Below, piece after piece: positions 6,401 through 38,100 of a stretch of 39,124 nt of DNA (positions are counted from its first letter, which is position 1; each line of letters begins with the position of its first letter). Source of the stretch: Reclinomonas americana ATCC 50394 (lineage: Eukaryota); the NCBI GenBank assembly GCA_048213135.1, contig PS015623.1:45103-84226 (forward strand), read 5' to 3'. The notes beneath the pieces were generated by a model. It had not been told where the DNA came from. It saw nothing but the letters and a program-made list of their open reading frames with translations, and did not search any database. The translations under genes and the position numbers were made by a program.

Positions 6401-7042
6401 CGCAGCGTGCCGGCCCGCTCGGCGGCATTAAAGTTGAGTGCCAGCATGCCCTGCGACGGAGGTGAGCCAACAGAGAAACAGGCATCAATAAGTACAAATT
6501 GCAGACTTGAGCACCTTCATGTCGTTGACTCGTTTCGCCCAGTCTGCGTGGTGATAAGCAGCTTGAGCGAAACGAGAGGAGAGAGAGAGGGAGACTGCGG
6601 GATGAAATGAACGCAACAAGTCGACATGGAGTACCGAGCGCCCTCTCTCCGCCCCTCCTCCTCTGCAAACTCACACGTGACGTCGTCCTCCATCGATCCC
6701 ATTATGGTGGCCAGCTCCAACTCCACGCGCTCCCTGCCGATCCAAGTAAGCAAATGTGTGATAGCAAAGGAACCACCACCAGCTGCAGTCGCACCTCTCC
6801 TCCTTCAGACGCGCATGCTCCATCAAATAGTCACGCTTGTGCCCGTCAATGCGCGACTTTTGCTTGTTGCCCTTGACCACCGACTTGAGCTGGTGCAACT
6901 ATACAAACGAGTGGAAGGATTGAGTCTGAAATAGCTGACAAAAAAAGTGACCTCGCACTCCCACCTTCTCCTCCAGTCGCTGCGAGCCTTGCTTTGACCG
7001 CTCCAGCAGCGCCATGGCCTTGTCCACATCGTGCCCGCCCAT
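3481..7042 (-). CDS. CCDC148: Coiled-coil domain-containing protein 148-like (>=9 introns; spans gap 3776-4369)
   Basis: The C-terminus GYSEVQLLKDPRYKLVTRLGEAGLLHKPYAQQVFQQMSLQQNPRKDMLST matches the recalled CCDC148 C-terminal motif (DPR...L.EAGL...YA...PRKDM.ST). A central W...HF...R.RFIDRL..EMPSH segment and E/R-rich coiled coils also fit. Confidence 0.75.
3776..4369. other. Assembly gap (N run)
   Basis: Ns in the sequence. Confidence 1.
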
Positions 7043-7420
7043 CAGTCGAGCGCGCTGACCATGGTGTGACACACTTCGAGCTGAGATGAATTGAAGACAC
7101 TGACTCGTGAGCACACACACACACACACACACTCACTCACTCTCTCTCACACACACCGTGCGTCTTCTCTCTTCTTCTTGCCTGTCTCTGTCTGTCTGTC
7201 TCTCTCGTCTTTCTGCTCCCGCGCAACTTGATTCGCCAGTGCTTGTCTGAGCACTGCCTGTGCGCTCACGCAAGTCGCGCACGGCTCTCAGTGCGCTCAT
7301 TCTTCAGAGAGAGCGAGCGGGCGGAGGTCAGAGTGTGTGAACGGCGGGACAGTTGCGCTCGCGTCTTCCCGCGCGCGCGATTCGGCTCCTTTCACATTTG
7401 TTAATCTCACATAAGCAGCA

Positions 7421-7996
7421 ATGGCCGGCGAGAAGTTGCGTCTCTGTCTGTGATGCTTATGCGATGTCCTTGTGTGCGCCTGTGGCGCTGTGCGTTCGCT
7501 CGTGTGCTGTGCGTGACATGTGCGCCGACATGTTTGCCAATGGCGGCCTCACGCTTGTCTCTTGACGCGCTGCAGGACTGTGTCGACGCGTGGAGCGGGT
7601 GCGGGCGTGTCGCTCAACTCAGCCAAGAAGAACTTCCTGTCGTTCTACTCGGGCGAAGGCGAGGACTCAATGGGCTTCAAAGTGTTGCGTCTCTCGCCAC
7701 ACACAGCGGACGCTCTCCCTCTCCGCACGCATGCACACACACGCACTCTATCCTCTGTTTCCGCACCCACTGCTCTTGTGTGTCTCGATGAGTGGCGAGC
7801 GTGTGGACGGGGGCGTGCGCGCCATTTTCCGACGCACATCCCCCACGCGCGTTGTCTCCCGCCAACTCATATTCTCTCTCTCCCCCTTGTTTCTCCCTTT
7901 GTGACTTTTAGGCCGCCGCAATTCGTGCTGATTGGCAGCATCATCTTTGTGGTGATTGTGTTCATCCTGCACATTCTCGGCAAGTTGGTCGGATAA
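7421..7996 (+). CDS. SEC61B: Sec61 translocon beta subunit; exons 7421-7434, 7576-7683, 7912-7996
   Basis: The spliced product is MAGEKTVSTRGAGAGVSLNSAKKNFLSFYSGEGEDSMGFKVPPQFVLIGSIIFVVIVFILHILGKLVG. It has the FY...DS.G.KV.P..VL..S..F...V..LHI.GK signature of Sec61beta. Both introns start GTTGCGT. Confidence 0.93.
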
Positions 7997-8124
7997 TCAT
8001 GGACTGCAGACGGGATTCGGCTCGCCTGTCGGCACGCGGGAATGAAGGCTGCGAGGCAGTGTTATAGACACCACCCTGTTTTGTGTTTCCTTGTTTTCTT
8101 CACATCTTACTTGGGTTCATCGCT

Positions 8125-10422: not shown

Positions 10423-10565
10423 GCAGACGACGACGACGGGAAGCGCGAGCGGGGCAAGAGGACGCCGAAAGACACTTCGCGGTTTTCCTTCTCAAATCAT
10501 TTCATTGCAAAACAAACAACAACACAACACAGAAGCTAGCTATGTAATACAAAGACAACGGGAGC

Positions 10566-13500
10566 TCACTGAATCTTGGGACGCAGGATGCCAGTGAATC
10601 TGCACAGCACAACACACAAATGAGTCGTCGGATCGTCCACCGTCCATGTCGCCGCATGGGGTGCACGCAACTTGTCCGGCAGCATCTCAAAGTAGCGGTC
10701 CATGGCCTCGCGGAAGCGCTTCTTGTACGACCGCGGATTCATGACGGTCGGCGCACCTTTGCCACCGCCAATGATACCACTGCTCTTCACAATGTGTTCC
10801 AGTTGCTTGTCCCACGTGTACTGGCGCAGGTAGTCTGCACGAAAAGGGCACACGTTGAGTTGCTTGCGAGCGAGCGCAGCGAGTGGACGAGCAGGTGGAA
10901 CGTAGCGCGCACCGATAATGCCGACCACCAGCTGCTGGCGCTTCTCATCGATGCCCACCAGCAACGAGTAGTCCATGACATTGACTTTGGAGAGGAAGAG
11001 GGTGTCGTTGAAGATGGATAGACTCATGAGCGCCTTGCTGGCCTCGTTCATGGCCAGCGGATTATCCTCGTAGATGACTGCACGCATCGACTCACAGTGA
11101 GCAGATGGAGCGGGAGCGCGCGCACACACATGCTCACGCACACTCCAGCATGTTCTCGTCGAGTTGCACGGCGTCGGACTTGGTCTGGTAGCGATTGCGC
11201 AACGAACCCTTGAGATCGAACGTCTGCACAACAGCAAAAGCACATGAGTTCCACGCTCGTACGCATCCCAACGACATTGTACATCACCTGTGCAATCTGC
11301 CGATCGTAGAACAGGTTCTCCATCACCACCAGGTACTTTTTCACGCTTCGACCGGCTGTCGCGTACTTGACTCTGTACAAGCCGAGGACCTTGACCAGCA
11401 CGGTCGGCAACTGCGCAGCACAACATACACGAGGTGTGAGTGCGTTGTACGTGCGAGCAGACGCAGGAATGCAGACGGAACTTGGTGGAAGAACGCCTTG
11501 GTGAGGTACTCAAAGTACGACAGGCCAAAGTCGAGGAACGACACGAGCTCCACACGCGACACGGACTTGATGACAAAGCGGTCATCTGCAACCTACGCGT
11601 AAGCAAAAAAAGGAAAAGAGAACACAGGCACAGTGAGTGGCATTTGCCGCACCCCATGTTTTCACAAATGTTGAGCCGGACTTGCCGCCGGTCGGCAGCC
11701 ATCTTGCGCATCGCAGGAGACTCTCCTCAAAGAGCACGTCACCACGGCTACAATCCCATCACGGACGACATGAGAAACGACGCACGACCGTAGCCAAGGG
11801 AATTCACAGCTACAACGCAACTGAATGTACTTGCGAAGGGCGGCAAACTGCAGCGGGAAATAGACGTGCACGGAGAAAGCGTCCTTCTTGGTGACGGGGT
11901 CCACCACGGCTGTGCGGGAAGCAGGGCATACCAATGGTAAGCAGGCGCAGAAAGCTACTCTCATTGTCGAACTACAGCGACACGCAACAGTGGCTAAACG
12001 GTGTCTTGTCCGGATTCAGCAACAGACTCTCCATGGCTGAGGGCACGCAGTGTTGAGACGGTCACACACACGAAATGAAGAAAACGGGACGAGTACAACG
12101 CAACTGACGTGATCGGCGGGGTGTGCCGCGTTCACTGGTTCCACTGTCCTCTCGTAGTCTCGAGAACTGCACGGGGGAGGCGGTGAGCTGCATGCACGGC
12201 GGTGTTTCACAACCCATATTTTCACGAACGTGAGCGTGTGAGCAATAAACGACGACGGTTCCTCGTGGTGCACCGGCACCAAGCCCAACAATCCCTCCGG
12301 CAAGTCCCAGTTGAACGACAGCTCCCTGTGAGACGAAGGTAGTTTGAGCAAGGTCACTAGCAGATAAAGTGCCACGTTGTAGCGACGCAACTGTGGGAGC
12401 GACACACTCGGGAACTTGATCTTTTTCAGCATGTGCGAGCGGCGTTTCATGTCTCGTTCGCGCTCGGCGGCTGCTGTGCGTGCGTTCGAAAGAGAGAACC
12501 CGTCGAGTGAGCAATCACAAACGCAGTCGCCGTCAAGTGAACAAGAGAATAACCAACCGAGACGTGCAGCCGCTCCACGAGCCGCACTGCCCGGCAGCGC
12601 TGTCGCTGACGGCACTGCACCAGTGGACACCGATCCGCTCTGCATCACAACCACCATCCTCGTCAGCACGCCGATACATGGCAAGCTAGCACACTCTCAC
12701 GTGGACGAACCATTCCGGAAACCGCAATCTCCACACTATCCAGCAGCGGCTCCGAAGCCACGTCGGGGAGCACCGGTGGCTGCGTATGAGAGCACGCATA
12801 AACATGTCAGCGTCAGAGCACACACACACTCGTGCAGCACACACAAACGCACATCCTCACGCGCGCCCTCCTGCAATCACACGAGCAATCAGTGAGAATG
12901 GGACATCGCAGAACACGATTCCTCCATTTCTTCGTCAACAAACCTCAAAGTCGGCATACGCAGAAATGGTCATGGCGGCAGCACCCTCGGATTCATCGGC
13001 CAGTCCTTCCCGTTCACCAAACCTGTCACTCTGCAACGACGCCAAGTAGTCCTGCATGGAGATGGCCGACTCGCCACCAATCTCCAGCTTGATTTGCACG
13101 CCAGCCGACAGGGCATTCTCAATCATCGTGGGCGACGTGGACAGGATCACCGGGTCGCCGGCATTCAACGTCAGCTGAACGAACGAGTGGTTCCAGTGAT
13201 GAATGTACACGCCCAAAAGTCTGCAACCACACGAGGTCAGCGGAGGCAACGATGATCACGCGGTGTGCGCACCGCACACGAACAAACACACAGAGCTCAC
13301 CTCAACAGTCGACCCATCGACATGAGGTCGTTGCCTTGCGAGCGCGCTTGCCGAATGATGGCGAGCATGTCCACAGTGTGCGACGGGATGAGGAGCTTCA
13401 GCGCCTCGAGTGTGTCCTTGCAGTGCTCGTACGGCTCAGACGCACTCATACGCTCCACCATGGCGTACACGCGCGACAAGATCTGTTCGCAGAAGAAGAG

Positions 13501-15381
13501 AAGTGTCAACAAACGCAACACAGTCGTACGAGCTTCGACGAACTGTACACACACACACATACACACACACACACACCTGCTCGGCAATGATGAACAGCGA
13601 ATTCCACTTCTCCTCACGCTTGTGATGGTGCGTTCGCATGTTGTAGTCGAGAACTGCCGGTGGCACAATGACGCGGCACAGCGACACCTCCTCGTACTCG
13701 AACCGAGCAATCTGCAAGTACATACACCGCGAGTGAGACGTGCGCACATGGAACCTCCGTTTCTCTCGTCCACAGCACGCAACAATGTTGCCCCTGGCAA
13801 AATGGCGTGTCACGTGCCGATGCGCCACCTTGTTCTCGGCCCATGTGCGGCAGTAGACGGTGGTGTTGTAGAAGAGGTTCTCCAAAAACTTGCCAAACGA
13901 ATACTGCAGGCTGCGATCGGAGAGTTTGTTGACTGGCGTCACTTGACGGCCTGTGTCGCGGCACGTGCCCCAAGTCACAATGTCGCGACCATCCGTCAGC
14001 TTCTTCTGCTCTCACAACACACGAAAGTGAGTCGATATCCATCCACAACATGAGCTCGCGTGGCACGAACCGCAGAACGGCGCACTGAGATCGACACTCG
14101 ACCCGATCCGTGTGCGTACGACTTGGTGTGCTGACAAATCTCGTCGAGCGTCTCCTCGTCAAAGCACTTGTGGTTCAAGTAGGTCTCCAACGTCAAGTCG
14201 TTCTCCGAGTAATAAGCAATCTCAATGACTTCCGGACACTCGTCCAGCTCCAGTCGATCGCGCAACTCGCTGTGGCGCACAAGGAAATAAAGCGATGAGT
14301 GTTAAGCACAACGATGCAACACAAGTAAAAAACACACACCTTCCGTCCGACACTGCGCGTTGTCGGTACAAGACGACCAGTTGCTGGTGATGGAACACCG
14401 ACGGCATGTACACTCGGAAGCCGGCTGTTGAACGCGGATACAGATCCACATTGTCGTTGGCCGACAGGAACGGCGAGGGCAAGAAGAGGCCTTTGGTGGG
14501 AATCGGAATGCGAATGTTTGGCGAAATGCTCATCAAATAGTCCGTCGGCACCTCGCCTGATGCGTGCACACACACAGAAGCAAAATCAGCGACGCGACAC
14601 GCACACGTGCTGTTGTAATGGAGACACACACACTCACCCATTTCGAGTGTGACCTCGCGATCAGTAATGGCCTCAAACGACGGGATTCGCGTGTGCACCG
14701 AAGCGGCCGGACTGCGAGCCGACGACTGCGAACCCTGCCCGTCGTCGTCCTCTGCCGTGTCGCCGCCAAACGCAGTGTCATCGGCGAGCGAGTCATGCGA
14801 GCCTTGTCGCACCAACTCCGCCGACACCTCCTCCACCGCCTGCGACACCAACGGCACGACGACCGAGTCGCGACCATCGGCTTTGCCGTCGGCCTCCACA
14901 TCGTCGAGCTAATGGCACGATAGTCATTCCGTGTGAGTCGTAGGGGGGGAGCCGCCAATACAGAAGTGCACACACCGCATTCGATCCGAACACGAAAAGC
15001 GGGACGGCACTGTTCTCGTAAAAGAGATACTCGGTCTCCAGCGACAGGTTGTAGGCCGCGTAAATTGCAAACTGCATGCAGTGCGGCAGTCAGTCCACAT
15101 CTGCACGACGAGCAGCTTGGTGGACGAGACGCAACGCGGAGCAGACGCTTGACAGCACGCAGTGTCTCGTGGTCCGCGCCACGCAGGTTGATGGTGCACC
15201 CGAGATCGGATGGGCAGCCTGCACGCATCAGTCGATAAGTAAATGCGTAAGCGCATTAATACGACGGCAGCCGAGAACGCACCATCAAAGTACAGTAGCG
15301 ACTTGCGGCCCCACTCGCCGGATTCGACCTTGAGACGGAACTCACTGCAAGTGCCCAGTTGCGGATTGCGCAAGGCATCTG

Positions 15382-15418
<37 letters not shown>

Positions 15419-18400
15419 GTCAACACAAATGCACGTAATTACACGACGAGTGTCATCGCGAGATCGTACCGGCCGACGGCAGGATTTCGCCCTCCGTCAG
15501 GCGTGCCACTCGCTCCATTGCCAAACCCTTGGTGTTGAGGATGAGCGTGACACCCGCTTCCAGGAACAAGTCCTGCATTTCGTGGTTGTCAGCAATCACT
15601 ATCGTCGGGTGCTCACAGATCGCGCCACCTTCACCGCACCTGTGCAATGCGTGACACGGATTTCTCCACAATCACAATGTCGGGCTTGAAGCTCAGAATA
15701 CGGTTGACGGTGCGCTTGATGTGCTCGCCCTCCTGCGCAATCACGCGTAAGAATGTGCACAAACGGCAACTCAGACAAGACAGGGTTGCTTGTGACACAC
15801 ACGTACCTGCTGCAGCAGAATGTCGAATGAGGAGACGCGATCTTCGGTGCGCTCGTATCTGTGTGCATGATTGTGATGAGACAATAGGCCAACAAGATGC
15901 GTGCGGAGAGGAGACGCACTCCAGCGCCGACTCGAGGAGCAGAATGCGTGGGTTACGAATGTGGCTCCGCATGCGCTTGTTCGCAATGGTACGATCAAGC
16001 ACCGCACCTGACACGTACTCGCAGTCCTCGAGGCGCATGTGTGGAATGCAGTGGATCTGCATGTGCGAGCGGACATTCATTCAGTAATCTGTAATGATGA
16101 CCACGACGCAGTTGGGGGAAATGTGGGTCACATACCTTGACGTACGCAGTAATGTCCATCTTGTCGCCATCGTCAACGCGCGGAAACACATGCTGGACGG
16201 CCTGGTACGAGAGCGCGAGGATCACATCTGCGGACGTTCCACGAGTGAGCGACAGACAAATACGAGCGCCACGCGAGAAACATAGCAATAAGCGCACCAA
16301 TCCACTGCGTGTCAAGGCCCGCCTCGGCAACAATCTGTGACACCAGACGATGGAAGTGCTGTGACGAGCAGTTCTCGAGAAGTACGCGATGGCGCATGCT
16401 GTCTTCCTCCGACTCTGTTAAAATGCAGATAATAAGCAGGCTGGAGGAGACACACACAGAGTGCACGCGCACATAGACACACCTCGCAGCTCCGACAGGA
16501 ACTGCACGGAAGTTGACTGGCCCAATACCAGCTGATGCTTTCGCGTGCCAAGGAAGCCGCGCAACCCGGCAGTGGTAGCCGTGCCTGCACATGAATATGT
16601 CAGCAAGTTGGTGACACGAACAAGCAAGAATGAAGTGAGGATCCACGCACCAGTGGGCGACGACGCAATGAGATGTTCCACATGTCGCGAGGCCGAGGCC
16701 ACAGAAGACTCCACATTCACTGTCGCCACCTGCACACCCACCACCATCAGCACAAACGAGAGCAGGTGGCGAGAAAACAACGCAACAGCTTCGGGAACTG
16801 CCGTGAGGTCTGTTTCAGACTTGCGCTCGGTGCCCCACCTGCATCGCCACAGAAAAGGTGAGAACAACAATGGCAGGTGCGCGGCAGCAGGACGATCACG
16901 CAACTCGGCCGAGTTGAACTTGTCCGAGTTGCCGGACTCGACCGTGGGAAGACCGACACGCTGCGGTAGATGAGTTGAGTCACAGCATGAAACACGAGAG
17001 TGCGTCTCGCTGTTAAGCAACACACCTCTTCTTGATCGGAAGCCGGTGGAACTGTGCCGTCGGCATCTGTCGGTAGCAGGAGGTGACAGCCGTCAGTATC
17101 AGGTTGAGCATTACACAAGCGCGCCAACTCGGGGCACACAAAACTCGGCAGCACAATGTCAGAGTCCGGGATCAACGCCAGTGTCTCGTCGCGATCCAGC
17201 GTCGTCTTGTTTCCCGACCCACCGAGGTGACTGATGATGGGCGTCGTTCCGGAGAGATTGCCGCCGTCTTCCGACCCCTGCACGTGCGTGCGCCGCAAGT
17301 GGATCTTGCGGTGGCCACCACTGAACTCTTCCTCCTCTGCGCAGCACTGCGAGTAAGCAAGTGGAATTCGTACAGGCCGTGAAGCTGACTGGACAAACCT
17401 CCACCTTCGTCCTGCGTCTCGAAAGAGTCAATCATGCGGCGCCTGCAGCGCCACGATGACGGTGAGTGAGTGAGTGGGAGCACAGGGGGAAACGTGGCAA
17501 AGGGATGATGAATACCTGCTGGCATTGTTTGCCGGTTCCTCCGATAATCTCGCCTCCGAGTGCGCACTGCTGGTCGGTGACGTGACAGTGGTGGCGACAG
17601 GTGCGGTCGACGAGTCGTGCGACATGAGCAGCTGAAAGCAGTACGAACAGACGCGAATGTTGCCCTGGTAGCCGTACGGAATGCCACTGATAAACACATT
17701 GCTGCACTTGCCGCAAAAGATCTGACCGCACACACGGCAGTGGTGCTTGCGCTTGAACACGCTAAACTGCGCGTGACACTCGTAGCAGTTCCGCGCGCTC
17801 TCGTCCGGCATCCAATACTCCTTCATCTTTTGCTTCGAGCCCAGCGCCTTGAGCCGCTCAATCACCTCCGACATTGGCGTTCGACTGTCGCGTTCCGTCG
17901 GCACACGCGACGGCCGCCTCGTCTGGTCCTCCACCAGCAACGAGCCCTTACTGCCACCAGAAGCACATCAGTGCGCTGTGGGAGACAGAAGCGCGAGCAT
18001 GCAAAGATAGACGCAACGCATCCAGCGACGACAGTGTTCCACTCCGATGCCGTGTTCTCACTGTCACGCAAACACATGCATGCCCAACGAGTGAGCACTG
18101 TTCTTGCGTCTGTCTGTCTCTCTCTGTCTCTCACACACACACACCTGCATTTGGTGCATCAGGCGACGCTCCTGCCGCCGCTGCTCCTCCTGGCCCGGAC
18201 GCTGCGGCTGTCGGCGTCATAGTCGGCGACTGTGCCGACTGCGCAGAGAGCGGAGTCACATTGGAGGTGTGCAGCGGAGCCAGTCTCGCCATCAAAGTCG
18301 GAGTCGTGGTGGTGGTCTCTGTGTCTTCATCACCGCCTCCTCCTCCGCCTCCGCCACCACCAGAGCCGCCTCCAGCACTGCTGATGTCGTCCTTGGAGAA

Positions 18401-18582
18401 GAAGCTGTGTGCACAATGAGTGAGCGAGTGTGTGTGCGCGAGTGTGTGAGAGAGAGAGACGGAGGATACCCTTTGAGACGAGACAGCAAGCCGCCCTTCT
18501 TCTGTTGCTTCTGTTTGCGCTCCTCGCGTGCAATCAGGTCAGAGAAGTCGGTGAGACCGCCGTTATCGCCGGCGTCGGCCAT
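10566..18582 (-). CDS. FAB1: 1-phosphatidylinositol-3-phosphate 5-kinase FAB1/PIKfyve (~41 introns)
   Basis: FYVE domain (YWMPDESARNCYECHAQFSVFKRKHHCRVCGQIFCGKCS), CCT/TCP1-like domain (KRMRSHIRNPRILLL, KPDIVIVEKSVSRIAQ), the SFGKFLE region, and PIPK domain motifs GGKSGS, DDRFVIK, MENLF, FDLKGS, DYSLLVG, GIIDYLRQYTWDKQLE. Confidence 0.96.
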
Positions 18583-18681
18583 GGAACGTGAGCACACACA
18601 CTCTCTGAGAGAGTGCAAAGAATTGCGTCTGTGACAATCGCAATCACTGCGAGCCCAATTGTCATACCCACGCACACGACG
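18583..18681. promoter_or_regulatory. Putative bidirectional promoter between FAB1 and ESF1 (99 bp between ATGs)
   Basis: Head-to-head start codons at 18582(-) and 18682(+). Confidence 0.6.
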
Positions 18682-21204: not shown

Positions 21205-21273
21205 NNNNNNNNNNNNNNNNNNNNNNNNNNNNNNNNNNNNNNNNNNNNNNNNNNNNNNNNNNNNNNNNNNNNN
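21205..21273. other. Assembly gap (69 N)
   Basis: Ns in the sequence. Confidence 1.
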
Positions 21274-21316
21274 CTCTGTCACACTCTGTCTCTCTCTCTA
21301 TCTGATCCACCCACAG

Positions 21317-27300: not shown

Positions 27301-30300
27301 ATCAAGTCGCTCATGGATGAATTGCAGCGCACCAATGAGCAAGCACTGCGTGTCCACGAAGAGCACATTCGGTGCGCGGCAGCCATGTGTTCTGTGCACT
27401 GCGGTGTCATTCGACGCTCACGCTTGCATGTTGCGCACAGACTGACGCACGCCAACACGCTGCTGACGGTGCGCATTCGGGAGTTGGAGATTCATCTCGG
27501 CAAGGTGCAGAGCGAGGCCATGGAGCACGGGCACCAGGTAAACAGCGACGCATTGCAGCAGGCACGGAGATTCTGGGAGACGGAGCTGGACTCGCTAAAG
27601 ACCTACTTTGAGGAGGAGATTCTCAAGGTGTGTCGCACATGGGCCAGCTTTCGTGAGCGTCGCTCACTCCCTTTATTCACACAGACGGTGCTGGTGGAGT
27701 CGAGGCAACCGGTTCTGTCATTAACGCGGGAACTGTGGTCGCAAAAGATTGTCGAAAGCAACCTGCTGTTGGAGCTGGAACTGGCGCAGAAGCGACGGGA
27801 TGCGGTGACGGTGCAGTTGGAATCGCAGGCCAGGGTGAACCGATCGTTGTTGGATCGCCTGCAAGAGGCCGAGGTGCTGTCGAGCACTTCGCCGACTGCG
27901 GCGTCGGTCACGGGTTCGGATAGCACGGTGTTTGGACAGTCGCTCGCCGCGTCGCTGTCACGCAAGACAGAACAGTTGGTGGCCATGGAGAAGGAGCTGC
28001 AGGAAGAGCGGCTGCTGGTGAGACGGTTGGAGAGTGATTTGCACATGTTGCAAACGCGCGCCGAGCGAGACCTGCATGCTGCGCGCACGACGGCTCAGTT
28101 GGAGACTTCGGGAAAGCACACAGAGTGGGAGAGGCGTCTCAGTACTGTGGAGGCGGAAAACGAGCGTCTGCATGCGGAGATTCTCAGATTACACGAGGAG
28201 CACGGGCACGAACTCATCGCGGTGCGGAAGCGCCTGAAGGAGGCGTACGAGAAGGTTCGTTATGCATTCGTGCGGTGTGTGTGTGTGTGTGTGTGTGCGG
28301 AAGGGCTCGTCTTCCTGCTCACTGGCATGTGTGCAGGAGGTGCTGGAGCTGGTGGACAAGTCGCGGCACATGAAGGTGGAGCACGACGAGGTGGTGCGGC
28401 AGTTGGAGGAGGTCAATGCGGCAGAGTCGTCGCGTCAGGCCGCATCGCAACAGCGAAAGGCATCATCGACGGCGGCAGCAAGTCCCGACGCCGTCAAGCA
28501 GCAGTGTTTGATCCGGCTGCGAGCCGACGATTTGGTCGCCGAGATTGAGACACGTGATCGCATTATTGAGGATTTGCAAAAGACAGTGGAACGACTGGCC
28601 AGTGTCGACCACGACGAGGAGGGCGGACGGGGGAGGAGCACCAGTCCCACTGGATTCATGTCGCTGACAGTGTCATCGCGTGGCAAGCAGCGTCGGTGAG
28701 TGAGGGTATGTGAGAGTGCCTGCGTTGGATGGCGATGCTGACTGCAGCTTCTGCCCCCTGTAGTGTGCATGGTCGCCCTGTGGAGGGTGCTGCGTCAGCG
28801 ACTGCCACAGTACCGCCAGCCGGTGGTGGAACTGGTGCCGCAGGTCCAACAACCGCTGCTGCCGCCCTCTCGCGTCACGTCTCGCAGCTCACTCGCGAGC
28901 TCGTGCGTGCCAAGGTTGCGTACAACTGAACCAAGAGCACGTCCGTTTCCGAATGATTGCTGACCGACGCCTGTGTGGTGTCGCAGACTGAACGACAAGA
29001 GGCCATTTCACGCATGCGCGTGGCGCTGCGAGCCGAGCTGGAAGTGCGTGAGCGCCTCTCGGCATTACGACTGCAATCCATTAGCCGTAGTGGCACGACC
29101 GCGGAAGCGCAAAGTGGTCCTCGGCGGCGCGACGAGTTGGCCGTGCGAAATGCGGAGCTCGAAGCAGAGGTGAACCACTTGCGTGGCATGCTGGCGCGTG
29201 CGCAGCTGCAAGTGACGCTTGGCGACGACGGGCATGTGGCCTCGCAGATGGTTCCGTACTCTGCATGTCTCACCAGTGTTGACTGTTGTACGTGCACTGA
29301 CGCTTGCTGGTGCCCTCCAGCGCGCGAATGGCGACACGGCCTCTCAGTCGGTGCTGGATGCGGTGCGTTGTAACTGCGCTGCGCGTTTGAGCTCACACAA
29401 AGCTCACTCGCCCTCGTAATGATGCAGCACTTTGTGTTGCAACACGGAGCACTTCCGTCGGCCGCACCGGCGCAGACGGGGGCAGGCGTTGTGCGCGACC
29501 ACAGTGAGGTGGACACGGTGTTGACTCGCATCGAGCACTCGCTATTGTCGCTGAGCAGCGCACTGGCGATCCGCCAACACGGCGCCGACGATGACGCTGC
29601 CTCTGCGGCTGCGAATGACGATGCGGGACCGGCAGATGAGGTCCGACCGGCCGAGGTGGCTCGCATTCGCAAGTTGCGTTCACGCACATGTTTTATCGCG
29701 TGGAGGGCGCCTTACCGATGTTTTTCATTTGGAGCAGGCTCTTTGATGACTGCATGCAGACATACATTAGCGAGTTGCACCGTCGACTGCGAGTGGCTGC
29801 CGACGTGTCGCAACACGCTGGAATCTCATTACCCAGGTTCCGAACTCACTACGCGTTTCTGCGCTCTTTCTTCTGTTCCTCTGAACCTCCTGAACAGCAC
29901 CGCCAGCGATCTGGTGCAGGAGCGTCGTGCCGTGTGGGAGGGCATGTTGGAACTCACACAGCGCATGTCGTCGCACGCCGGTTCGCTGATCTCCAAGGCA
30001 CAAGCGCTTCGCAAGCATCTTCGCCCCGAAGATGCGTCAGCACGCGACGCACTCGCCGACATGTCGGGAGTCGAGTCGATGGCACAACTGTTGCAGCAAG
30101 AGGTGCAGTCTTGCGGTCGGTGCCGGTTTTTTTGTCGTGGCACTCATGCAACGTTGCACTGCAGCTGCAAGACGTGGCCAAGATGCAAGGCTATCAGGTC
30201 GGCTTGTGCAATGTAGACGCGCAATTTGGTGGTGGTGCTGCGTCGGCCGCAGCATCAGATCGGTGAGTGCCTGTGTGTTGTTTGTCGCCTTCTTTTTCCA

Positions 30301-33300
30301 ATTGTGGGTGACCGGGCCATGCCATGTGCTGCAGCGAGCCGGTGGTGTTGACGTTGAAACAGCAAGTCGTCGACTTGCAGTCGGAGCTGAGTCGCCGCGG
30401 TGAGGAGACTGCACTGGATCAGCTGCGTCAGCGCGTCGAGCGTGAGAGTCTGGAAGAGCGCGTACGCCTTCTCGCACAAGCACAAGAGGCAAGTGTGTGT
30501 GTCTGTCTCAGAAGCTATGCTGTGTGACCGCTTCCGCTCATTGATTGGTGCGTGCCTCACAGCAACTTCGACAACGCTACGATGCGCTGCGTGAGAAGCT
30601 ACGCGACGAACGGCGCCAGCACAGTGAGAGTCGCAAGCAGGCCGACAAGGTGCAGCGGCAGCTGGTCGAGACGCAGTCGGCAAAGGACGATGCGGAGCGT
30701 CGACTCCAACAAGCACGCACCACCACTCGTCGTGAGTCCTCCTCGGCGGCGGCGGCACGCACTGATGGTGAGTCAGGCGAGTATGAGTGCGCGCGCGTCT
30801 CCATGCGGCATGCTGACGGGTGTCTGCAGGCGACGGTGAGCGTGACAGACGCTTGCGTGAGGCGGAGGCGCAAGTGGCTGCGCAGAGACAACGCGCGGAT
30901 CAGGTGCAGGAGGAGTTGCGATCGGAGGTCGAACGGCTGCGTCACGAGCTGGAGAGTGTGCGGGTGCGTTGTCGACGGCTATACCCTCCCACTCACGTGT
31001 TTTCGATGACCCAGACTAATGTGCGAGTGTGCTTTGCAGGAGCAACATCAGACCAAGTGCGACGAGCTGGCGCAGTGCACGCAAGAGCGCGATTCGGCAC
31101 GCCGTCAACTCGGCGAATCGCTGGCTGCACTCACCAGCAAGGCGCCCTCTGTGCCACCATCACCGGCGCCGGTGCCACAGGTCCATGACGATGCGTTGCG
31201 GCATTGGCGGGAGCGCTGCCGGTTGTTGGAGAGTGATGTGGAGCGAGCGAGGGAGGAGGCAGCGGAGAAGGATGACGAGGTGCAGAAGCTCACCGATCTG
31301 TGTGCTCGAGCCGACTCGGAGATTTCACAAATGCGCGGCGAGATGCGACGGGCTATGGAGGAGGTGGCGTGCTGTGTTTGCGCTCTGCGGGGGAAAAACG
31401 CCTTCCTCATTGTCCGTTCTGTGTGTGCAGCATGCCTCCATGCTGACGGATTACCGACAGCAACTCGAGGATGCGACCGCCGAGTGCGAGCGTTTGCGGG
31501 AACAGCAGCATCGACATGGTGGTGAGCGCGGTTACGTGCGTCACATTCAAGCACAGCTGGAGCAACAACAGGAGCGATTCAGACAGCAGCTGGAGGATCA
31601 ACGCCGTTTGTTGGAGGAGCACGCGCAGCCAGTGGTGCACGCAGAACGCGAGCTGTCGCCAAATGGATCGGTGAGGCTGTCAGCGTCGTCGCTCTCTTCA
31701 CAACTACCGTGACTGACTGGGCGCTGTGCAGTTGGCCGACGTACAGGAGGAGTTTGCGGCATATCGTAGGGCTCACGATGCCATGGCGGAGATGTACGAA
31801 GCCGAGATCGAACAGCTGCGCGAGCAGATGAACGTGGTGTGTTCGCACAGAAACACGAGCGTGCTGCATCTGTCCTCGAGTCTCACTCCGTTATCAGCTG
31901 CTGCGTGAGCGACGAGCTGCCGGCGCCCCTATTGTGGCTCGTGTGGCCCGCCCAGTGGGACGCAAGTTTGCACCCCTGCATTCGCGCAAGCGGCATGCGC
32001 AGGTCGCTGTCATTCCCGAAGGCGAGGAATCTTCATTCCCGTCCATTTCCAGTCTGTCGCCATCGCAACCGTCGTCGTCGTCGTCAAATGCGTCGGCGGC
32101 GGCCATGGTTCCGCCGCTGGCCTTGCCAAGGCACGAATCGGCAGCTACCACGACTGGTTTCGCCTCCGATGTTGCGGACAGCAGGCTGTTGCAGTTGGTG
32201 TGTGTGTGATACGCTGCTTACACATTTTTGTCGCAGTCGGCATACAAGGACTGGATGATTGAGCGGCTAAAGGAGGACGTGACCGAGTTGCGCAAGCAAC
32301 TGCGCAAGCTCCAACCAAAGGCAAGCCTTGTGTGCCGAGCGTTTGAGGTTGCGTGTAATGTCGCTTATGTGTGTGCGATGTGTGTGTGTGTGTGCAGCGG
32401 AAGAAGGGTGCAGCGGCTGTACGCATTGCCGGAGCCAGCGAGGGTGGCGTGCCAGCCTACGCACCGTTCCAGTGGCGCACCGAGAAGCGCAACCTGCAGA
32501 TCGAGTTGGAGATTGCCGCCGACCGACTGCGAGAGAGTGAAAACCGCGTGCTGGAGCACAAGCGGACGATTGACACGCTGAATCGGCGCATCCGTGAGCT
32601 GATGCGAGACCTCACCGCCGCCAGTCGGTGAGATCTCTCTCTCTTCTCTCTTCACGTGTGCTGGTGAAGAAGGAGAAATGTCTGACCAACGCTGCAGGGA
32701 ACGCGAGGCCGCTGCGGCTGCGAGCTCACGTCAGCAGCAGTTGCGCAAGAGCCAGCGATTGCACACTCATGTCGTCGTTGTATAATTGTCTCAACTCATG
32801 ATGTTCTGTTGGCAGACTGGATGACCTCGCCGCACGCACGAAACAGCAACGAGAGGAGGTGCAACGAAAGAATCGACAACTCAGCGCCATGAAGCACTCG
32901 GTGGAGGACATGGTGAGGATTGGGCATGCAAGAAAGCTTTGCCTTGGTTGGCTCGTTTTTCTCACGCCGTGGTCTCCTGCAGGAGGAGAAGAGTGCATTG
33001 CTGCAGCAGAAGCTCATGGTGGCGGAGGAGCGCAACAAGCGGCTCGAGGGCGACATCCTGCGCAAGGTTACGCCTCGGTGTGCTCGCTCGTGCTGCTGAT
33101 AGTGCATGTCGCCCTCATCACTTTCGTGCAGGATAATTTGATACGCGAACTGCGCGCCCGCGAGGAGCGTGCACACGGCGATGTGGATGCCGCGCAGCAG
33201 CAGGCCCAGAAACTGAGGTGAGCCGTTTCTATTTACTCCCGGCCTCCCCGTGCTTGCGTCACTCACGTGCACGGGGGTGGTCTTGTTTTTTCCTTTGTAG

Positions 33301-34316: not shown

Positions 34317-34397
34317 TGATGATGATAACGAATGACGAATGACTATAATAATGAATGAATGAGCTCTAATCGCAGTTGTGTACATGCTGCAGCATCC

Positions 34398-34808
34398 TCA
34401 CACACGCTCAGTGCGCACCGAGAGCAAGTGCTTGACCTGTGCCTGCAAAGTGAGCGCGACAATGACAACGACACACACGCAGTCAGTCACACAAAAGAGA
34501 GCAGCGTGCCTTGCTCAGTTTGCCAATGATCTCGCGTGTCGCCGGCAACACCCTCTCCTGCTGCAACTTGTGCAGACGCAGCGATCGCACGGTTGACCGC
34601 ACGGCCTCCGTGTTGCCAATGGGACTGCATGAGAGAGAAGAGAGAGAAAGAGAAGAAGGGAGGGTGAGAAGGGAAGAGAGTTGCAAGAGAGAGAGAGAGA
34701 GAGTAAGTGTGTGTGTGTGAGAGAGAGAGGAGGGTGAGGGAGAGTGTGTGTGCGTGTGTGTGTGGAGAGAGAGAAGAAGATCGAGGAAGAAGAAGAGAGG
34801 GTGAGGGA

Positions 34809-34844
<36 letters not shown>

Positions 34845-34904
34845 AGAGAGTGGAGAGTGGAGAGTGTGCGTGTGCATTATGCGCGTCTTTCACTTTCCCC
34901 CTTA

Positions 34905-34963
<59 letters not shown>

Positions 34964-35009
34964 CTCACCTCTTGACCAGCTTCACAAAGAGGATCGTGCC
35001 ACCGCTCAT
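34398..35009 (-). CDS. MRPL30: Mitochondrial (bacterial-type) ribosomal protein uL30; exons 35009-34969, 34624-34510, 34436-34398
   Basis: The spliced product is MSGGTILFVKLVKSPIGNTEAVRSTVRSLRLHKLQQERVLPATREIIGKLSKVKHLLSVRTERV, matching the uL30 pattern (VKLVKSPIG...TVRSL.L.KL.Q......T..I.G...KVKHLL.V). The second intron is GC-AG. Confidence 0.88.
34630..34960. repeat. Compound (GA)n/(GT)n/(CA)n microsatellite block inside uL30 intron 1
   Basis: Seen directly; includes a long (CA)n at ~34906-34960 and (GT)n at ~34813-34842. Confidence 0.9.
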
Positions 35010-35108
35010 CGCCAACACCAAAATCAACAACAAGTCGATGTCGACCGTCGCGCGCGCGCGTCGTCCTGTCACTCCTGTCCACGCTCTCGTGCGCGCTCGC
35101 TCACCTGC
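35010..35108. promoter_or_regulatory. Putative bidirectional promoter between uL30 and the F-box/LRR gene (99 bp between ATGs), containing (CG)6
   Basis: Head-to-head ATGs at 35009(-) and 35109(+); CGCGCGCGCGCG at 35049-35060. Confidence 0.5.
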
Positions 35109-38100
35109 ATGAGCGTCTCCTTTGTCAACGCCGAGCGCCATGGCGGTGCCACCTTCTCCCCCTGGCGGCGATTCAGCGCGCCCGGCTACCGCGCACTGCA
35201 ATACACCGCCAGCAACACGCACGCCAGCTCGGCTGTCTCGTCGATCCTGGCCGGGCAGGTGAGGGTGGTGGCCGTGGAGAATGGCGATGGTGGAGGGCAG
35301 CAGGAGCAGGGAGGAGAGGGATCGGCGGGACTGGTGCTTCGGCATGGTCGCGCGTGGGAGGAGCGCGATGATGGGTGGTTGACTGGCGATTGTTGCGTCT
35401 GTGTGTCACTGCGCTGCCACTGTGTGTTGCTCACGTGTGTGTGTGAGATCATCAGTGCCGGAGGATGTTACGTGCTGGCGCTGTGTGTTCAGTGTGTTCG
35501 GACTCGGGATTTGATTGCTGTTTGTTGGTGCGAGCAGACGTGGCGCCACATCTTCTCGTTCTTGGATGTGACTGACTATCGACGCAACTGCTTTGTGTGC
35601 TCGAAGGTGTGGCTGGCTGTCTCTGTCTCTCGCTTTCCACCCTCACCTCTCTCTTCTCATCTCATGTTGCAGTGGTGTCGACTCTATCGGGAAAATGTTG
35701 GTGGTGCCGTGTTGCCGCTGGAGACGCGACAGGCGCGAGACTTTTTGCAGAGGTTCCCCGGACTTTGTCAGATCATTGGTGAGACGCACGTGTGGTTTGT
35801 TTATTGTTTGTTGTCTCATTGTGGCTGGCAGTCGGGGAGGGCACATCGACTGCCACACTGGCGGTGCTGATTGAGTACTTGAATGCGCCCAAGTGTGTGG
35901 TGGAGAGCCTCGTACTCCCGTCGAATGGTGATGTGCCTTTTGCTTTTCCCCTTCTGCTTCTCTCTTTCTGTCTCTCCGATGCTGACATACTGGAAAAAGT
36001 GCTGGAGCGAGTCGACATGCTGCGAGTGGTCATAGGTGGCAACGGCAGTGCGCCGAATCTGTGCCGATTGCAGCTGAGTGGACCCAGTTGCGTCTTCGAC
36101 TTGCTTTCCGCGAGTGCGTGTGTGCGTGAGCGCGCTGACCTGAGTGCGTCTGACAGTGGCACCGAGCGACATGGTGCGTTTCCCTCGCGACAGGATTCGA
36201 AGTCTGCGCGGTCTGTCGCTCTCTTTTCTCGCTGTGACTTCTCAGTTCTCACTCTCTCTCTCTGATAGTGGTCAGCGGCCCGCCGGCGCCGTACTTCCTC
36301 GAGGCGCCCGCATTCTACGAGCAGCTGTCGCTGGTGGATGCCCACCCCGCGAGTGTGCGAATGCTAAAGGATCACCTTCAGCTGCGGTCGCTGGAGCTGG
36401 TGATTGGTGCGTCATCGCGTCAGAATCTCCTCTCTCTCTCTCTCTCTCTTACCCACTGTCTCTCACCGAAAATTAAATCGCCCAGGTCGAGGACCGGCTG
36501 CGCAGGTCATGCTGCTGTCGGAGCTGCGCGAACTGATCGCCGCCGACGCCTTTCCGAATCTCGAGATATTGCTCGGTGAGTGTGCGATCAACAAATGCAC
36601 AATCACCACTTGCCGTCGTCTCTTTCTGACAAGAACAGTTGTTGCAGTGCGCGCAAATAGTGCATACGGCTACTCCGCTTCGGAAGATGTTTCGTTGGAC
36701 GCTGCACTGGTGGCATTCAGTCAGGTGCTGCCACGGCTTCGGCGCCTCAAGGTTCGCCGCGATGTGCGCCGTCCTGCTGCTCTTTCCCCCTATCTGCGAC
36801 GCTCACTCGTGCCACAGGTCTTGCAATTGGACGGTGTGCTCAGCCTGCCCGTGGTGCAAATGGGTATGGAGAATGGCCTCAGTCGTGGACTGGCGGCACT
36901 CGGTGCGGCGATTGCGGCCGGCAACACCATTCACTCCTTGTCGCTGATGGTGAGTTGCGACAACAGTGTGTGATGGGAATCGACTGTTGAAAATGGACCT
37001 GACTGTCCACCTTGTGCATGCAGTGCAACGGACTCACCACACTGGCGTCCTTCTTTGAGGGCATGCACGGACCCCACTGCCCGCTTCGTGAGCTTGCCCT
37101 CTCGCAGGTGCCGTCTGTGAGATAAGAAATGAGAGATGTATCATCGCGTGCTCATCTTTTGCTGTTGTGCTTTACAGAACACACTGGGTGACGCGGCCGT
37201 CGAGCACCTCGCGAAATACTCCGAGTCGCACATTGGTGGCATCAGGCGCATCGGTCTTGGTTGGAATCGTCTGACCAACGCTTCCGTACCGCATCTGGCC
37301 ACGCTCTTGCGACAAGAGTGGTTGGAGACGTTGGATCTGGAGCGTGCGTACGAGCCGCGGGATGGCGCCTGCCTTTTCCTGCCTTGTGTAGCTTACCTGC
37401 AGCATGCATGCGCAGGAAATCTGTTGCAAGATATCTCTCCACTGGCCGAGGCCATGGCAGTGGCACCACTCGAGTCCTACCTCTGTCGCTTGGAGTTGGG
37501 AGGCAATCTAGTTGGTGGCGACGACGCCATGCGTCTGGTGGAGGCCGCTCGTCAACGCCCAGCCCTCGGCTATCTAGGTACGTGTTTGTCGATTTTCAAA
37601 ACGGCGACAAGACGGCTTGGTCTCACATGAGTGTGTGTGTGTGTGCGTGGCAGGACTCACTGGTAACTGCATTCCGTTTGACATTGTGCAGCAGCTGGTA
37701 GCCGGTGGTCGGCCAGTAGAGTGTGGCAGTTGAGTCGTTTGGGAGGAGAAGGTATTCTCTTTTGTGGTTGTTGACCTCGGTCCGTGCAGGTCAGCGAGTC
37801 TACGTGGACTGGGGTGCCATTCGACGTGAGATCGAGCCTCCAGCACCGCCGACCAAAGTGTTTACATTGTCGGCCACCACAGAGTGGAAGCCGCCGACGG
37901 ATCGTGTCGACTGCCCGCCTCCGCCGGATAACTCGGTGTTTCTGAAAAACATTGCAGCGCCCGTGGACTCTGCGGTGCCAGGTGTGTTTCAGTTCAGCAT
38001 CAGACCCTTTCTCTTTCTCTCTCTCACTCTGTCGATCACCAGGCGGCAAGCCGTCTCTGTACATGTCGCCACCATCTGCCATGAGACCACCGCTGCAAAT

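What the first reader, a model, noticed from the sequence alone, without database searches (positions are those of the whole stretch)
6617..36093. Shifted donor is tied to the absence of G at exon position -1
Seen: the last exon base before the 20 GTTGCGT donors is A 9 times, T 7, C 3 and G once (28915). Ordinary donors are overwhelmingly preceded by G; I found only ~8 exceptions, nearly all GTGCGT (e.g. 22309, 22546, 23291, 37343). Established: donors lacking -1G (U5 loop/U1 contact) normally compensate with +5G (U6 contact). The shifted class has neither, since +5 is C. Inference: in the shifted register intron G+1 takes the place of exon G-1 (A|GTTGCGT aligns with AG|GTGCGT). This would free the exon end from sequence constraint and act as a compensatory splicing code.
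Basis: partly seen in the sequence, partly recalled or inferred. Interest (0 to 1): 0.75.

Follow-up and report, generated by a model that had tools for sequence, protein, structure and literature searches.

The report
Extra-T splice donor class GTTGCGT
In this stretch of DNA from an unidentified eukaryote about one intron in six starts with the fixed letters GTTGCGT (the usual GTGCGT plus one extra T), and these introns, unlike ordinary ones, are almost never preceded by a G at the end of the exon.

Summary
The core observation holds. GTTGCGT occurs 27 times against 9.7 expected, and 22 of the 25 copies in gene bodies lie on the sense strand. I judge 19 copies to be plausible intron starts, 3 uncertain and 5 not donors. 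Six sit at junctions supported by homology in the Fab1/PIKfyve gene, and two more fit Sec61beta. The base before the 19 donors is A 9, T 5, C 3, G 2.

Ordinary donors have G at -1 in 11 of 13 homology-checked junctions and in 35 of 54 of my modelled GTRMG donors (Fisher p = 4e-5). Only the seven motif letters are shared among these introns, so they are not repeat copies. They are also not U12-type.

The shifted-register reading is plausible: A is enriched at -1 (9 observed, 4.4 expected). It remains untested. A bulged-U register, or a U1 complementary to GUUGCGU, fits nearly as well. Both non-canonical registers are known but rare in human. No RNA data, genome, U1 gene or close relative could be obtained.

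Verdict: a real feature, a new variant of a known kind, of moderate interest.

The parts
7435..7575 (+). Sec61beta intron 1, GTTGCGT donor, -1 A, 141 nt
   Evidence: The 14-nt first exon ATGGCCGGCGAGAA is followed by the motif. The spliced product reads MAGEK.... My gene finder predicted this 3-exon gene independently.
7684..7911 (+). Sec61beta intron 2, GTTGCGT donor, -1 T, 228 nt
   Evidence: Residues 2-23 of the exon after it match Pfam Sec61_beta positions 20-41 of 41 and Sec61beta chains in the PDB. The reading frame joins ...GFKV to PPQFVLI.
10600..10671 (-). Fab1/PIKfyve last intron, GTTGCGT donor, -1 A, 72 nt
   Evidence: The spliced C-terminus PDKFTGILRPK aligns with PDKFYGILVPR of the relative P0122. 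The score is 99.4 bits spliced against 90.1 bits read-through.
11748..11821 (-). Fab1 intron, GTTGCGT donor, -1 A, 74 nt
   Evidence: It gives a near-gapless profile alignment FAALRKYiHRGDVLFEESLLRC and scores +8.3 bits over the alternative donor at 11785. One other alternative scores +4.0 bits, so support is moderate.
11910..11988 (-). Fab1 intron, GTTGCGT donor, -1 T, 79 nt
   Evidence: Together with the 12104 intron it frames a 47-nt exon. The two-intron model scores +20.7 bits over a single 195-nt intron. The best alternative junction is 3.1 bits lower.
12037..12104 (-). Fab1 intron, GTTGCGT donor, -1 A, 68 nt
   Evidence: Same test as for the 11988 intron. The best alternative junction is 3.5 bits lower.
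12326..12391 (-). Probable Fab1 intron, GTTGCGT donor, -1 A, 66 nt
   Evidence: It is in frame and free of stops, and the profile cannot tell spliced from read-through (-0.2 bits). It has a donor motif, a CTCAA branch-like motif and a TCTCACAG acceptor.
13712..13783 (-). Fab1 intron, GTTGCGT donor, -1 T, 72 nt
   Evidence: Removing it adds 24 bits against the Fab1 profile. The best alternative junction is 12.9 bits lower.
15072..15135 (-). Fab1 intron, GTTGCGT donor, -1 C, 64 nt
   Evidence: It is required for the reading frame. It joins ...LRAVKRLLR to FAIYAAYNLSLE. The best alternative junction is 21.4 bits lower.
16730..16786 (-). Probable Fab1 intron, GTTGCGT donor, -1 T, 57 nt
   Evidence: Profile gain of +5.1 bits, but alternatives score equally in this poorly conserved part. 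It has typical branch and acceptor signals.
16839..16904 (-). Probable Fab1 intron, GTTGCGT donor, -1 A, 66 nt
   Evidence: Profile gain of +3.4 to +10.3 bits over read-through. It has typical signals.
17951..18017 (-). Probable Fab1 intron, GTTGCGT donor, -1 C, 67 nt
   Evidence: Read by eye. Together with the 43-nt exon 18060-18018 it is the only reading I found that links the ATG at 18582 in frame to the FYVE domain (the profile match starts at 17877).
19001..19071 (+). ESF1 intron, GTTGCGT donor, -1 A, 71 nt
   Evidence: It is required for the reading frame. It has 136 open codons upstream and 167 downstream, with good coding scores. A NUC153 domain lies in the upstream exon.
20758..20828 (+). 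ESF1 intron, GTTGCGT donor, -1 T, 71 nt
   Evidence: It is required for the reading frame and was chosen in every run of my gene finder.
25838..25896 (+). Intron in the large coiled-coil gene, GTTGCGT donor, -1 C, 59 nt
   Evidence: It is required for the reading frame and was chosen in all gene-finder runs.
28915..28986 (+). Intron in the large gene, GTTGCGT donor, -1 G, 72 nt
   Evidence: Read-through meets a stop (VAYN*). Splicing joins ...RELVRAK to TERQEAISRM. Chosen.
29673..29737 (+). Intron in the large gene, GTTGCGT donor, -1 A, 65 nt
   Evidence: It is required for the reading frame.
32348..32397 (+). Intron in the large gene, GTTGCGT donor, -1 G, 50 nt
   Evidence: It is required for the reading frame. 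An in-frame alternative donor at 32330 was chosen in one run.
36087..36268 (+). Probable intron in an F-box/LRR-like gene, GTTGCGT donor, -1 A, 182 nt
   Evidence: This is the top-scoring frame-keeping junction...LQLSGP[m]VSGPPAPYFLE, with acceptor TCTCTGATAG. The rival reading is read-through plus a weak GTCTGT donor.
6544..6617 (-). Uncertain GTTGCGT donor, -1 T
   Evidence: An in-frame alternative donor exists at 6674 (GTGAGT). Different gene-finder runs chose differently. No homology is available.
35392..35455 (+). Uncertain GTTGCGT donor, -1 T, possibly a 5'UTR intron
   Evidence: It has the motif, a CTCAC branch-like motif and a CAG acceptor, but there is no coding frame with which to test it.
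13483..13519 (-). Doubtful GTTGCGT donor, -1 T, probably inside a 94-nt intron that starts at cag|GTGTGTG (13576)
   Evidence: Models that remove the (GT)n-encoded residues score 5 to 14 bits higher than the 37-nt intron model.
21972..21978 (+). GTTGCGT copy that is not a donor; it encodes E-L-R inside an exon
   Evidence: Context shown; it lies in the long open frame 21275-22045.

Best explanation
GTTGCGT is a genuine second class of ordinary (U2-type, GT-AG) intron starts in this organism. It makes up about 16-17% of the introns I could model. It equals the commonest donor, GTGCGT, with one extra U after the GU.

The same splicing machinery most likely reads it in a non-canonical register. 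The U1 helix forms on UGCGU one base further into the intron. Either the whole helix is shifted, so that intron G+1 sits where exon G-1 normally sits, or one U is bulged out. Cleavage still happens in front of the only GU.

In this reading the intron supplies all of the recognised bases, so the exon end carries no G requirement. I favour the shifted register over the bulge because A, not G, is enriched at -1.

What is shown: the class is real, its seven letters are invariant, and G is lacking at -1. What is inferred: the register and the RNA partners.
For: - Motif enrichment: 27 copies against 9.7 expected. Sense against antisense in gene bodies: 22 to 3.
- Junctions supported by a Fab1 profile built from 45 homologues: 15135, 13783, 12104, 11988 and 11821, and 10671 through the relative P0122. 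Sec61beta exon 3 matches the family directly after the 7684 intron.
- The -1 base is G in 2 of 19, against 35 of 54 modelled ordinary donors (p = 4e-5). In the homology-supported junctions it is 0 of 8, against 11 of 13 (p = 2e-4).
- A at -1: 9 observed, 4.4 expected from codon-position composition (p = 0.016).
- Only the 7 motif columns are invariant across the 19 introns; mean column identity is 34%.
- Length, composition and branch-like CTNAY motif match ordinary introns: 14 of 18 against 42 of 54 carry the motif, and median length is 71 against 73 nt.
- Variants with a weaker downstream match are nearly absent. Modelled donors include GTTGAGT 1, GTTGCGG 1 and GTTGTGT 1, while the unshifted GTGAGT 10, GTGCGC 7 and GTGCGG 5 are common. 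This is expected if a weaker register demands a perfect remainder.
- GTTGGTG at 20139 has G and T at +5/+6 in the normal register, and it does carry AG before it.
- Shifted and +2/+3 bulge registers are experimentally established in human cells (PMC4856993, passages and section 18 read).
Against: - No transcript evidence exists for any junction.
- Thirteen of the 19 donors rest on reading-frame logic and splice signals alone. My gene finder made demonstrable errors: 13978, 15800, and the missed introns at 20139 and 37344.
- G depletion against a neutral expectation is only marginal: 2 observed against 5.6 expected, p = 0.044.
- T at -1 (5 to 8 cases) pairs with U1 in neither register.
- The -2 and -3 preferences of ordinary donors are too weak here for a proper test of register transfer.
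- The organism's U1, U5 and U6 sequences are unknown, so all base-pair counting uses the canonical U1 5' end, which I recalled rather than retrieved.
Confidence: 0.55

Rival explanations
1. Bulged-U register with plain compensation. U1 pairs with G+1 and U+2 as usual, one U bulges out, and GCGU pairs as +3 to +6. The exon-end G is dispensable only because the intron side is already a perfect match. This follows the known trade-off between exon-side and intron-side strength. G is not replaced by anything.
For: - Ordinary donors show the same trend. GTGCGN donors have G at -1 in 17 of 32, and GTGAGN donors in 15 of 20.
- Of the 19 modelled non-G exceptions, 14 are GTGCGN.
- Both homology-checked exceptions (15919, 11141) are GTGCGT.
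- The bulge at +2/+3 is a validated human register.
- G at -1 is not absent: it occurs at 28915 and 32348.
Against: - In a bulge register G at -1 would still add a pair, so it should remain at least as common as in GTGCGT donors (9 of 17). It is 2 of 19 (p = 0.01).
- This model does not predict the A excess at -1.
Confidence: 0.25
2. The organism's U1 snRNA, or a second U1 variant, is directly complementary to GUUGCGU. The seven-letter class would then be the best-matched site and would need no help from the exon. The ordinary, degenerate donors would be the imperfect ones that need the exon-end G.
For: - All seven letters are invariant in 19 of 19 introns, while ordinary donors are degenerate. 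Such invariance recalls classes served by a dedicated RNA.
- The -1 composition is close to neutral.
- The preference for C at +4 in ordinary donors and at +5 in this class does not match the canonical U1 5' end (recalled), which hints at a changed U1.
Against: - Rfam finds no snRNA in the window, so nothing supports this directly.
- Branch-like motifs, length and composition do not differ between the two classes, which argues against a separate machinery.
- One-mismatch variants of GTTGCGT rescued by an exon-end G should then be common. I modelled only three GTTG variants plus GTTGGTG at 20139.
Confidence: 0.12
3. Artefact. The pattern comes from mis-modelled genes and chance copies of a common heptamer, and the -1 bias merely reflects codon composition.
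For: - There are no transcripts.
- My models contain errors.
- About 10 copies are expected by chance, and I do reject or doubt 8 of the 27.
- Nine of the 19 donors are in phase 2, where G is rare at codon position 2 (19%).
Against: - Strand asymmetry of 22 to 3.
- Homology-supported junctions.
- The contrast with ordinary donors modelled by the same procedure, which never scored exon bases.
- The phase-corrected expectation still leaves an A excess and a G deficit.
Confidence: 0.05

Closest known systems
Shifted-register 5' splice sites of human genes (Roca and Krainer 2009, cited as ref. 10 in PMC4856993; that paper itself could not be opened)
   Same: The donor equals the consensus with one extra U after GU. 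All U1 pairs are moved by one position, so intron G+1 takes the place of exon G-1, and cleavage stays at the GU. The register is described in the passages of PMC4856993 read. The human motif GUUAAGU is recalled, not seen.
   Different: In human these are rare atypical sites within a degenerate spectrum. Here a single invariant heptamer accounts for 18 of 112 modelled introns, or 19 of 113 with the hand-read intron at 18017. It is built on a GUGCGU rather than a GUAAGU consensus. No genetic proof of the register exists here.
Bulge +2/+3 register of U1 pairing (Roca et al. 2012, cited as ref. 16; numbers from Tan et al. 2016, PMC4856993 section 18)
   Same: The sequence logic is the same: one surplus U at +2/+3 is accommodated so that the downstream bases pair as +3 to +6.
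   Different: In human it covers 68 of 201,541 sites (54 after curation), about 0.03%. Here the share is about 16-17% of modelled introns. The loss of the -1 G preference seen here is not what a pure bulge predicts.
AG|GTGCGT donors with a CTGAC branch motif in Mamiellophyceae (Ostreococcus, Micromonas). PMC2483917 passages read; PMC3879977 passages read
   Same: The atypical GTGCGT(G) consensus and a CTGAC-like branch motif are what the ordinary introns of this window show.
   Different: The passages I read do not mention an extra-T class. Those genomes are intron-poor outside their outlier regions, whereas this window holds about 35 introns in one 8-kb gene. No close protein relative was found: best identity about 50% for full-length proteins, and a single 91% fragment from a metagenome.
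Association between exon-end G and intron +5G (PMC8283771; only the start of its abstract in the search listing was seen)
   Different: Here the rule appears to be satisfied in another register (G at +6). The class carries neither G when counted canonically.
U12-type (minor spliceosome) introns
   Same: This is a minority intron class with a long, nearly invariant donor and no exon-end G preference (recalled).
   Different: The donor is not RTATCCTT, and no TCCTTRAY branch motif is present: 3 matches against 2.1 expected, none of them in these introns. The 3' ends look like those of ordinary introns.

Membership tests
U2-type GT-AG spliceosomal introns | GT at the 5' end and AG at the 3' end | tested here: met
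   All 19 modelled introns run from GT to AG; 15 have a CAG acceptor and 4 a TAG acceptor.
U2-type GT-AG spliceosomal introns | Removal restores an open frame or the homologous protein sequence | tested here: met
   Homology supports 15135, 13783, 12104, 11988, 11821 and 10671 and the Sec61beta junction at 7684. Eight more donors are required for the reading frame: 7435, 19001, 20758, 25838, 28915, 29673 and 32348, and 18017 by my own reading. 36087 has a rival read-through model. Three remain optional: 12391, 16786 and 16904.
U2-type GT-AG spliceosomal introns | Branch-like motif shortly upstream of the acceptor | tested here: met
   CTNAY lies 8-45 nt before the 3' end in 14 of 18 introns of this class and in 42 of 54 ordinary ones.
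U2-type GT-AG spliceosomal introns | Excision seen in transcripts | not testable with these tools
Shifted-register 5' splice sites | The sequence reads as the organism's consensus moved one base into the intron behind GU | tested here: met
   GTTGCGT against the commonest ordinary donor GTGCGT (17 modelled). All 7 letters are invariant.
Shifted-register 5' splice sites | Exon positions take the preferences of the position one step further out (-1 behaves like ordinary -2) | tested here: inconclusive
   A is enriched at -1 (9 of 19 against 4.4 expected, p = 0.016), and A is the commonest base at ordinary -2 (18 of 54). T is also frequent at -1, and ordinary -2/-3 preferences are weak.
Shifted-register 5' splice sites | More stable pairing with the organism's own U1 in the shifted than in the canonical register; rescue by suppressor U1 | not testable with these tools
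   There is no snRNA gene in the window and no genome is held.
Bulge +2/+3 register | A surplus U at +2/+3 with the consensus downstream | tested here: met
   Same sequence evidence as for the shifted register.
Bulge +2/+3 register | Exon-side pairs (-1 G) are kept as in the canonical register | tested here: not met
   G at -1 in 2 of 19, against 9 of 17 for GTGCGT donors (p = 0.01).
U12-type introns | RTATCCTT donor and TCCTTRAY branch site | tested here: not met
   The pattern searches found none in these introns.
Introner elements (repeat introns) | Sequence similarity between copies beyond the splice signals | tested here: not met
   The alignment of the 19 introns has no conserved column outside the heptamer.

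The most novel reading that the evidence does not exclude
In this lineage a non-canonical U1 register is not an occasional rescue but a second, genome-wide donor code. About one intron in six uses an invariant seven-letter donor read one base out of register, which frees the last exon base from any splicing constraint. It would be the first organism in which shifted-register recognition is a major intron class. It would also offer a natural system for separating U1 binding from choice of the cleavage site.
Probability: 0.35. Interest if true: 0.7.

Novelty: new variant of a known kind. Interest (0 to 1): 0.55.

Why it matters
Donor recognition is usually taught as a single register of U1 pairing. 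Human exceptions sit at the 0.03% level for the +2/+3 bulge.

An organism in which one fixed out-of-register donor serves a sixth of the introns would do three things:
- It would give splice-site predictors and genome annotators a concrete rule. My own gene finder mis-modelled several of these introns until it allowed the extra T.
- It would show how far the exon-end G requirement can be transferred into the intron.
- It would provide many natural paired cases (GTGCGT against GTTGCGT) for asking which RNA (U1, U5 or U6) fixes the cleavage site.

If the class proves to reflect an altered or second U1, that would be of interest in its own right.

Tried and rejected
- **RNA evidence.** No RNA holder was listed for window 10500-20400. 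Read laying could therefore not be used.
- **Genome.** None is held, so neither a genome-wide test nor a search for U1, U5 or U6 was possible.
- **Earlier notes.** None exist for this genome.
- **Rfam.** No family matched in the window.
- **Protein searches.**
  - The L30-like frame gave nothing at E <= 1e-10.
  - ESF1 gave one distant hit.
  - Fab1 gave only relatives of about 50% identity.
  - The representative search added a 91% fragment, P0144, from a 1,424-nt metagenome contig whose DNA I could not fetch.
- **Metagenome scan.** The scan for relatives' DNA gave 59 loci, the best at 67% identity, none of them close. I did not use them further.
- **PDB and Pfam on Sec61beta exon 2 alone.** No match. 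The fit of that exon to the family rests on my recall of the family consensus.
- **My own gene finder.**
  - Flat scoring over-predicted on both strands.
  - Self-trained site matrices ran away to 865 introns, and 169 remained over-predicted.
  - Later runs were usable but still erred.
  - Codon log-odds cannot separate in-frame introns from exons.
- **Literature.** Searches for the motif itself returned only primers and unrelated sequences. This is weak evidence that the class is not in print. Roca and Krainer 2009 and Roca et al. 2012 are not held.
- **Readings rejected.** U12-type introns; introner repeats; pure chance or codon composition.

Full report
**What the window is.** It is nuclear DNA of an intron-rich eukaryote with about 58% GC and three N gaps.
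- Pfam hits on open frames identify a Fab1/PIKfyve gene on the minus strand, roughly 18582 to 10566, with FYVE, Cpn60_TCP1 and PIP5K domains.
- On the plus strand lie ESF1 (from 18682), Sec61beta (7421-7996) and a very large coiled-coil gene (21.3-34.3 kb), followed by an F-box/LRR-like gene. A small L30-like frame lies on the minus strand.
- No genome is held, no RNA run was listed, and there are no earlier notes.
- Protein searches found no close annotated relative. Fab1 hits are about 50% identical. The only near relative is a 71-residue, 91%-identical fragment from a metagenome contig. I could not place the organism.

**The motif.** GTTGCGT occurs 27 times, against 9.74 +/- 3.42 in shuffles; 0 of 100 shuffles reached 27. 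In gene bodies 22 copies are on the sense strand and 3 on the antisense strand (p = 1.6e-4). For comparison, GTGCGT is 38 to 24 and GTGAGT 16 to 19. An alignment of the 19 candidate introns shows seven invariant columns and nothing else, with mean column identity 34%. So this is a signal, not a repeat family.

**Are they donors?** With no transcripts I used two lines of evidence.

*Line 1: my own gene finder.* I wrote a dynamic-programming gene finder using codon log-odds plus intron-side site matrices. Exon bases were never scored, so it cannot bias -1. Early versions over-predicted. Later ones gave 114 to 137 introns, with known errors.

*Line 2: homology.* I built a profile from 45 Fab1 homologues, mapped the exons, and scored 384 alternative spliced models plus targeted toggles.
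- Against the best alternative GT-AG junction, 15135 wins by 21.4 bits, 13783 by 12.9, 12104 by 3.5 and 11988 by 3.1.
- Removing the 13783 intron adds 24 bits.
- The 47-nt exon between 12104 and 11988 adds 20.7 bits.
- 11821 beats the 11785 donor by 8.3 bits and gives a near-gapless alignment. One other alternative scores +4.0, so support there is moderate.
- The last intron (10671) is supported by the relative P0122: PDKFYGILVPR against spliced PDKFTGILRPK, 99.4 against 90.1 bits.
- In Sec61beta the exon after the 7684 intron matches Pfam positions 20-41 and PDB Sec61beta chains. The three-exon product is a 69-residue Sec61beta-like protein. That exon 2 fits the family is my recollection, because exon 2 alone gave no hit.

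*The remaining sites.*
- 7435, 19001, 20758, 25838, 28915, 29673 and 32348 are required to keep the frame open.
- 18017 is required by my reading of the sequence. 36087 is the top-scoring frame-keeping junction, but a read-through model is also open.
- 12391, 16786 and 16904 are in-frame and supported only by signals and small profile gains.
- 13519 is probably inside a 94-nt intron that begins at cag|GTGTGTG.
- 6617 and 35392 cannot be decided.
- 21972 is coding; 24039, 24933 and 35588 are antisense; 2558 is unknown.

**The -1 base.**
- For the 19 plausible donors it is A 9, T 5, C 3, G 2, with G at 28915 and 32348.
- Ordinary donors supported by homology have G in 11 of 13. These are 16297, 16135, 15806, 15639, 15469, 15282, 13300, 11652, 11287, 10912 and 20352. 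The exceptions are 15919 (A) and 11141 (T), both GTGCGT.
- In my full model set, GTRMG donors have G in 35 of 54, and all non-GTTGCGT donors in 54 of 94. Before that count I dropped:
  - 13519, from both classes;
  - the untrusted stretch 34300-35550;
  - a two-exon model on the + strand at 2898-3430;
  - three donors that I replaced by hand (28787, 28941, 36211).
- Fisher tests:
  - 2 of 19 against 35 of 54, p = 4e-5;
  - against GTGCGT alone (9 of 17), p = 0.01;
  - homology-supported subsets, 0 of 8 against 11 of 13, p = 2e-4; the strict Fab1-only subset, 0 of 5, p = 0.0025.
- Wrong ordinary calls would dilute, not create, this contrast.

**Is G avoided or just not needed?** I used codon-position composition and the phases of the 19 donors (6, 4 and 9 in phases 0, 1 and 2). 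The neutral expectation is G 5.6 (observed 2, p = 0.044), A 4.4 (observed 9, p = 0.016), T 3.9 (observed 5) and C 5.0 (observed 3). The solid statement is therefore that the G preference is absent. Active avoidance of G and a preference for A are suggestive only.

**Mechanism.**
- The class has the same length, composition and branch-like motif as ordinary introns. It has no U12-type signals. This points to one spliceosome.
- The heptamer equals the commonest donor plus one U. Weaker versions are nearly absent among modelled donors (GTTGAGT 1, GTTGCGG 1, GTTGTGT 1), although the unshifted GTGAGT, GTGCGC and GTGCGG are common (10, 7 and 5). A costly register thus seems to demand a perfect remainder.
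- GTTGGTG at 20139 is supported by the ESF1 homologue P0121. It has G and T at +5/+6 in the normal register and does carry AG before it.
- GTTCCGT at 11481 is homology-supported (best alternative 31.6 bits lower). It behaves like the extra-T class, with -1 A.
- These points fit register logic. Between the two known non-canonical registers (PMC4856993), the shifted one predicts A at -1, pairing where -2 A normally pairs. The bulged one predicts retention of G.
- The data lean to the shift, but T at -1 is unexplained. A U1 complementary to GUUGCGU cannot be excluded without the snRNA genes.

**Comparison with what is known.**
- Shifted and bulged registers are established but rare in human. The +2/+3 bulge accounts for 68 of 201,541 sites.
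- The GTGCGT consensus with a CTGAC branch is described for Mamiellophyceae. The passages I read do not mention an extra-T class, and their supplementary logos were not available to me.
- Motif searches of the literature found nothing relevant. That is weak evidence of absence.
- I therefore rate this a new variant of a known kind. It is a non-canonical-register donor used as a major, invariant class: 18 of 112 modelled introns, or 19 of 113 with the hand-read intron at 18017.

**Verdict.** The decisive data are transcript junctions, U1, U5 and U6 genes, and related genomes, and these lie outside what the tools offered.

Noticed in passing
window 11989-12036 (- strand): A 47-nt exon of Fab1 (MESLLLNPDKTPFSH) lies between two GTTGCGT introns. 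Keeping it adds 20.7 bits against the Fab1 profile.
   Followed up: yes
window 18462-18469 (- strand): The first intron of Fab1 starts aagg|GTATCCTC, a U12-like donor motif. RTATCCTY occurs 4 times against 0.7 expected, always on the minus strand. No TCCTTRAY branch motif follows.
   Followed up: partly
window 11411-11481 (- strand) and 20139-20204 (+ strand): There are two further homology-supported donors with T at +3. caa|GTTCCGT in Fab1 (best alternative 31.6 bits lower) has -1 A. gag|GTTGGTG in ESF1 was missed by my gene finder and was found through P0121. It has G and T at +5/+6 in the normal register and keeps AG before it.
   Followed up: partly
whole window, e.g. 13543-13576 (- strand), 18062-18144 (- strand), 21635, 28285: (GT)n runs are very common: GTGTGTG occurs 160 times. 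They often sit at intron starts, where any GT of the run could be the donor. Such donors cannot be placed without transcripts.
   Followed up: partly
window 10835-10912 (- strand): The intron between ...VVGII and DYLRQYTWDK of Fab1 lies where unspliced genomic frames of distant relatives (P0122, P0123, P0125) also carry an insertion. This is probably an old intron position.
   Followed up: no
protein P0144, corresponding to window 10671 (- strand): A 91%-identical fragment from a metagenome contig continues after ...MLPDK with F, a TTY codon. If it is an unspliced frame, the relative's DNA there begins GTTY, not GTTG. The donor may therefore differ between close relatives.
   Followed up: no
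window 37344-37414 (+ strand): gagc|GTGCGTAC...GCGCAG is a likely in-frame intron that my gene finder read through.
   Followed up: partly
window 34507-34626 (- strand): A Ribosomal_L30 domain frame lies on the minus strand (E = 1.2e-5). It falls between the large gene and the F-box/LRR-like gene. My plus-strand models across 34300-35550 are therefore not trustworthy.
   Followed up: partly
window 8001-10000: There is a low-GC stretch (GC 0.39, against about 0.57 elsewhere) next to the N gap at 9215-10061.
   Followed up: no
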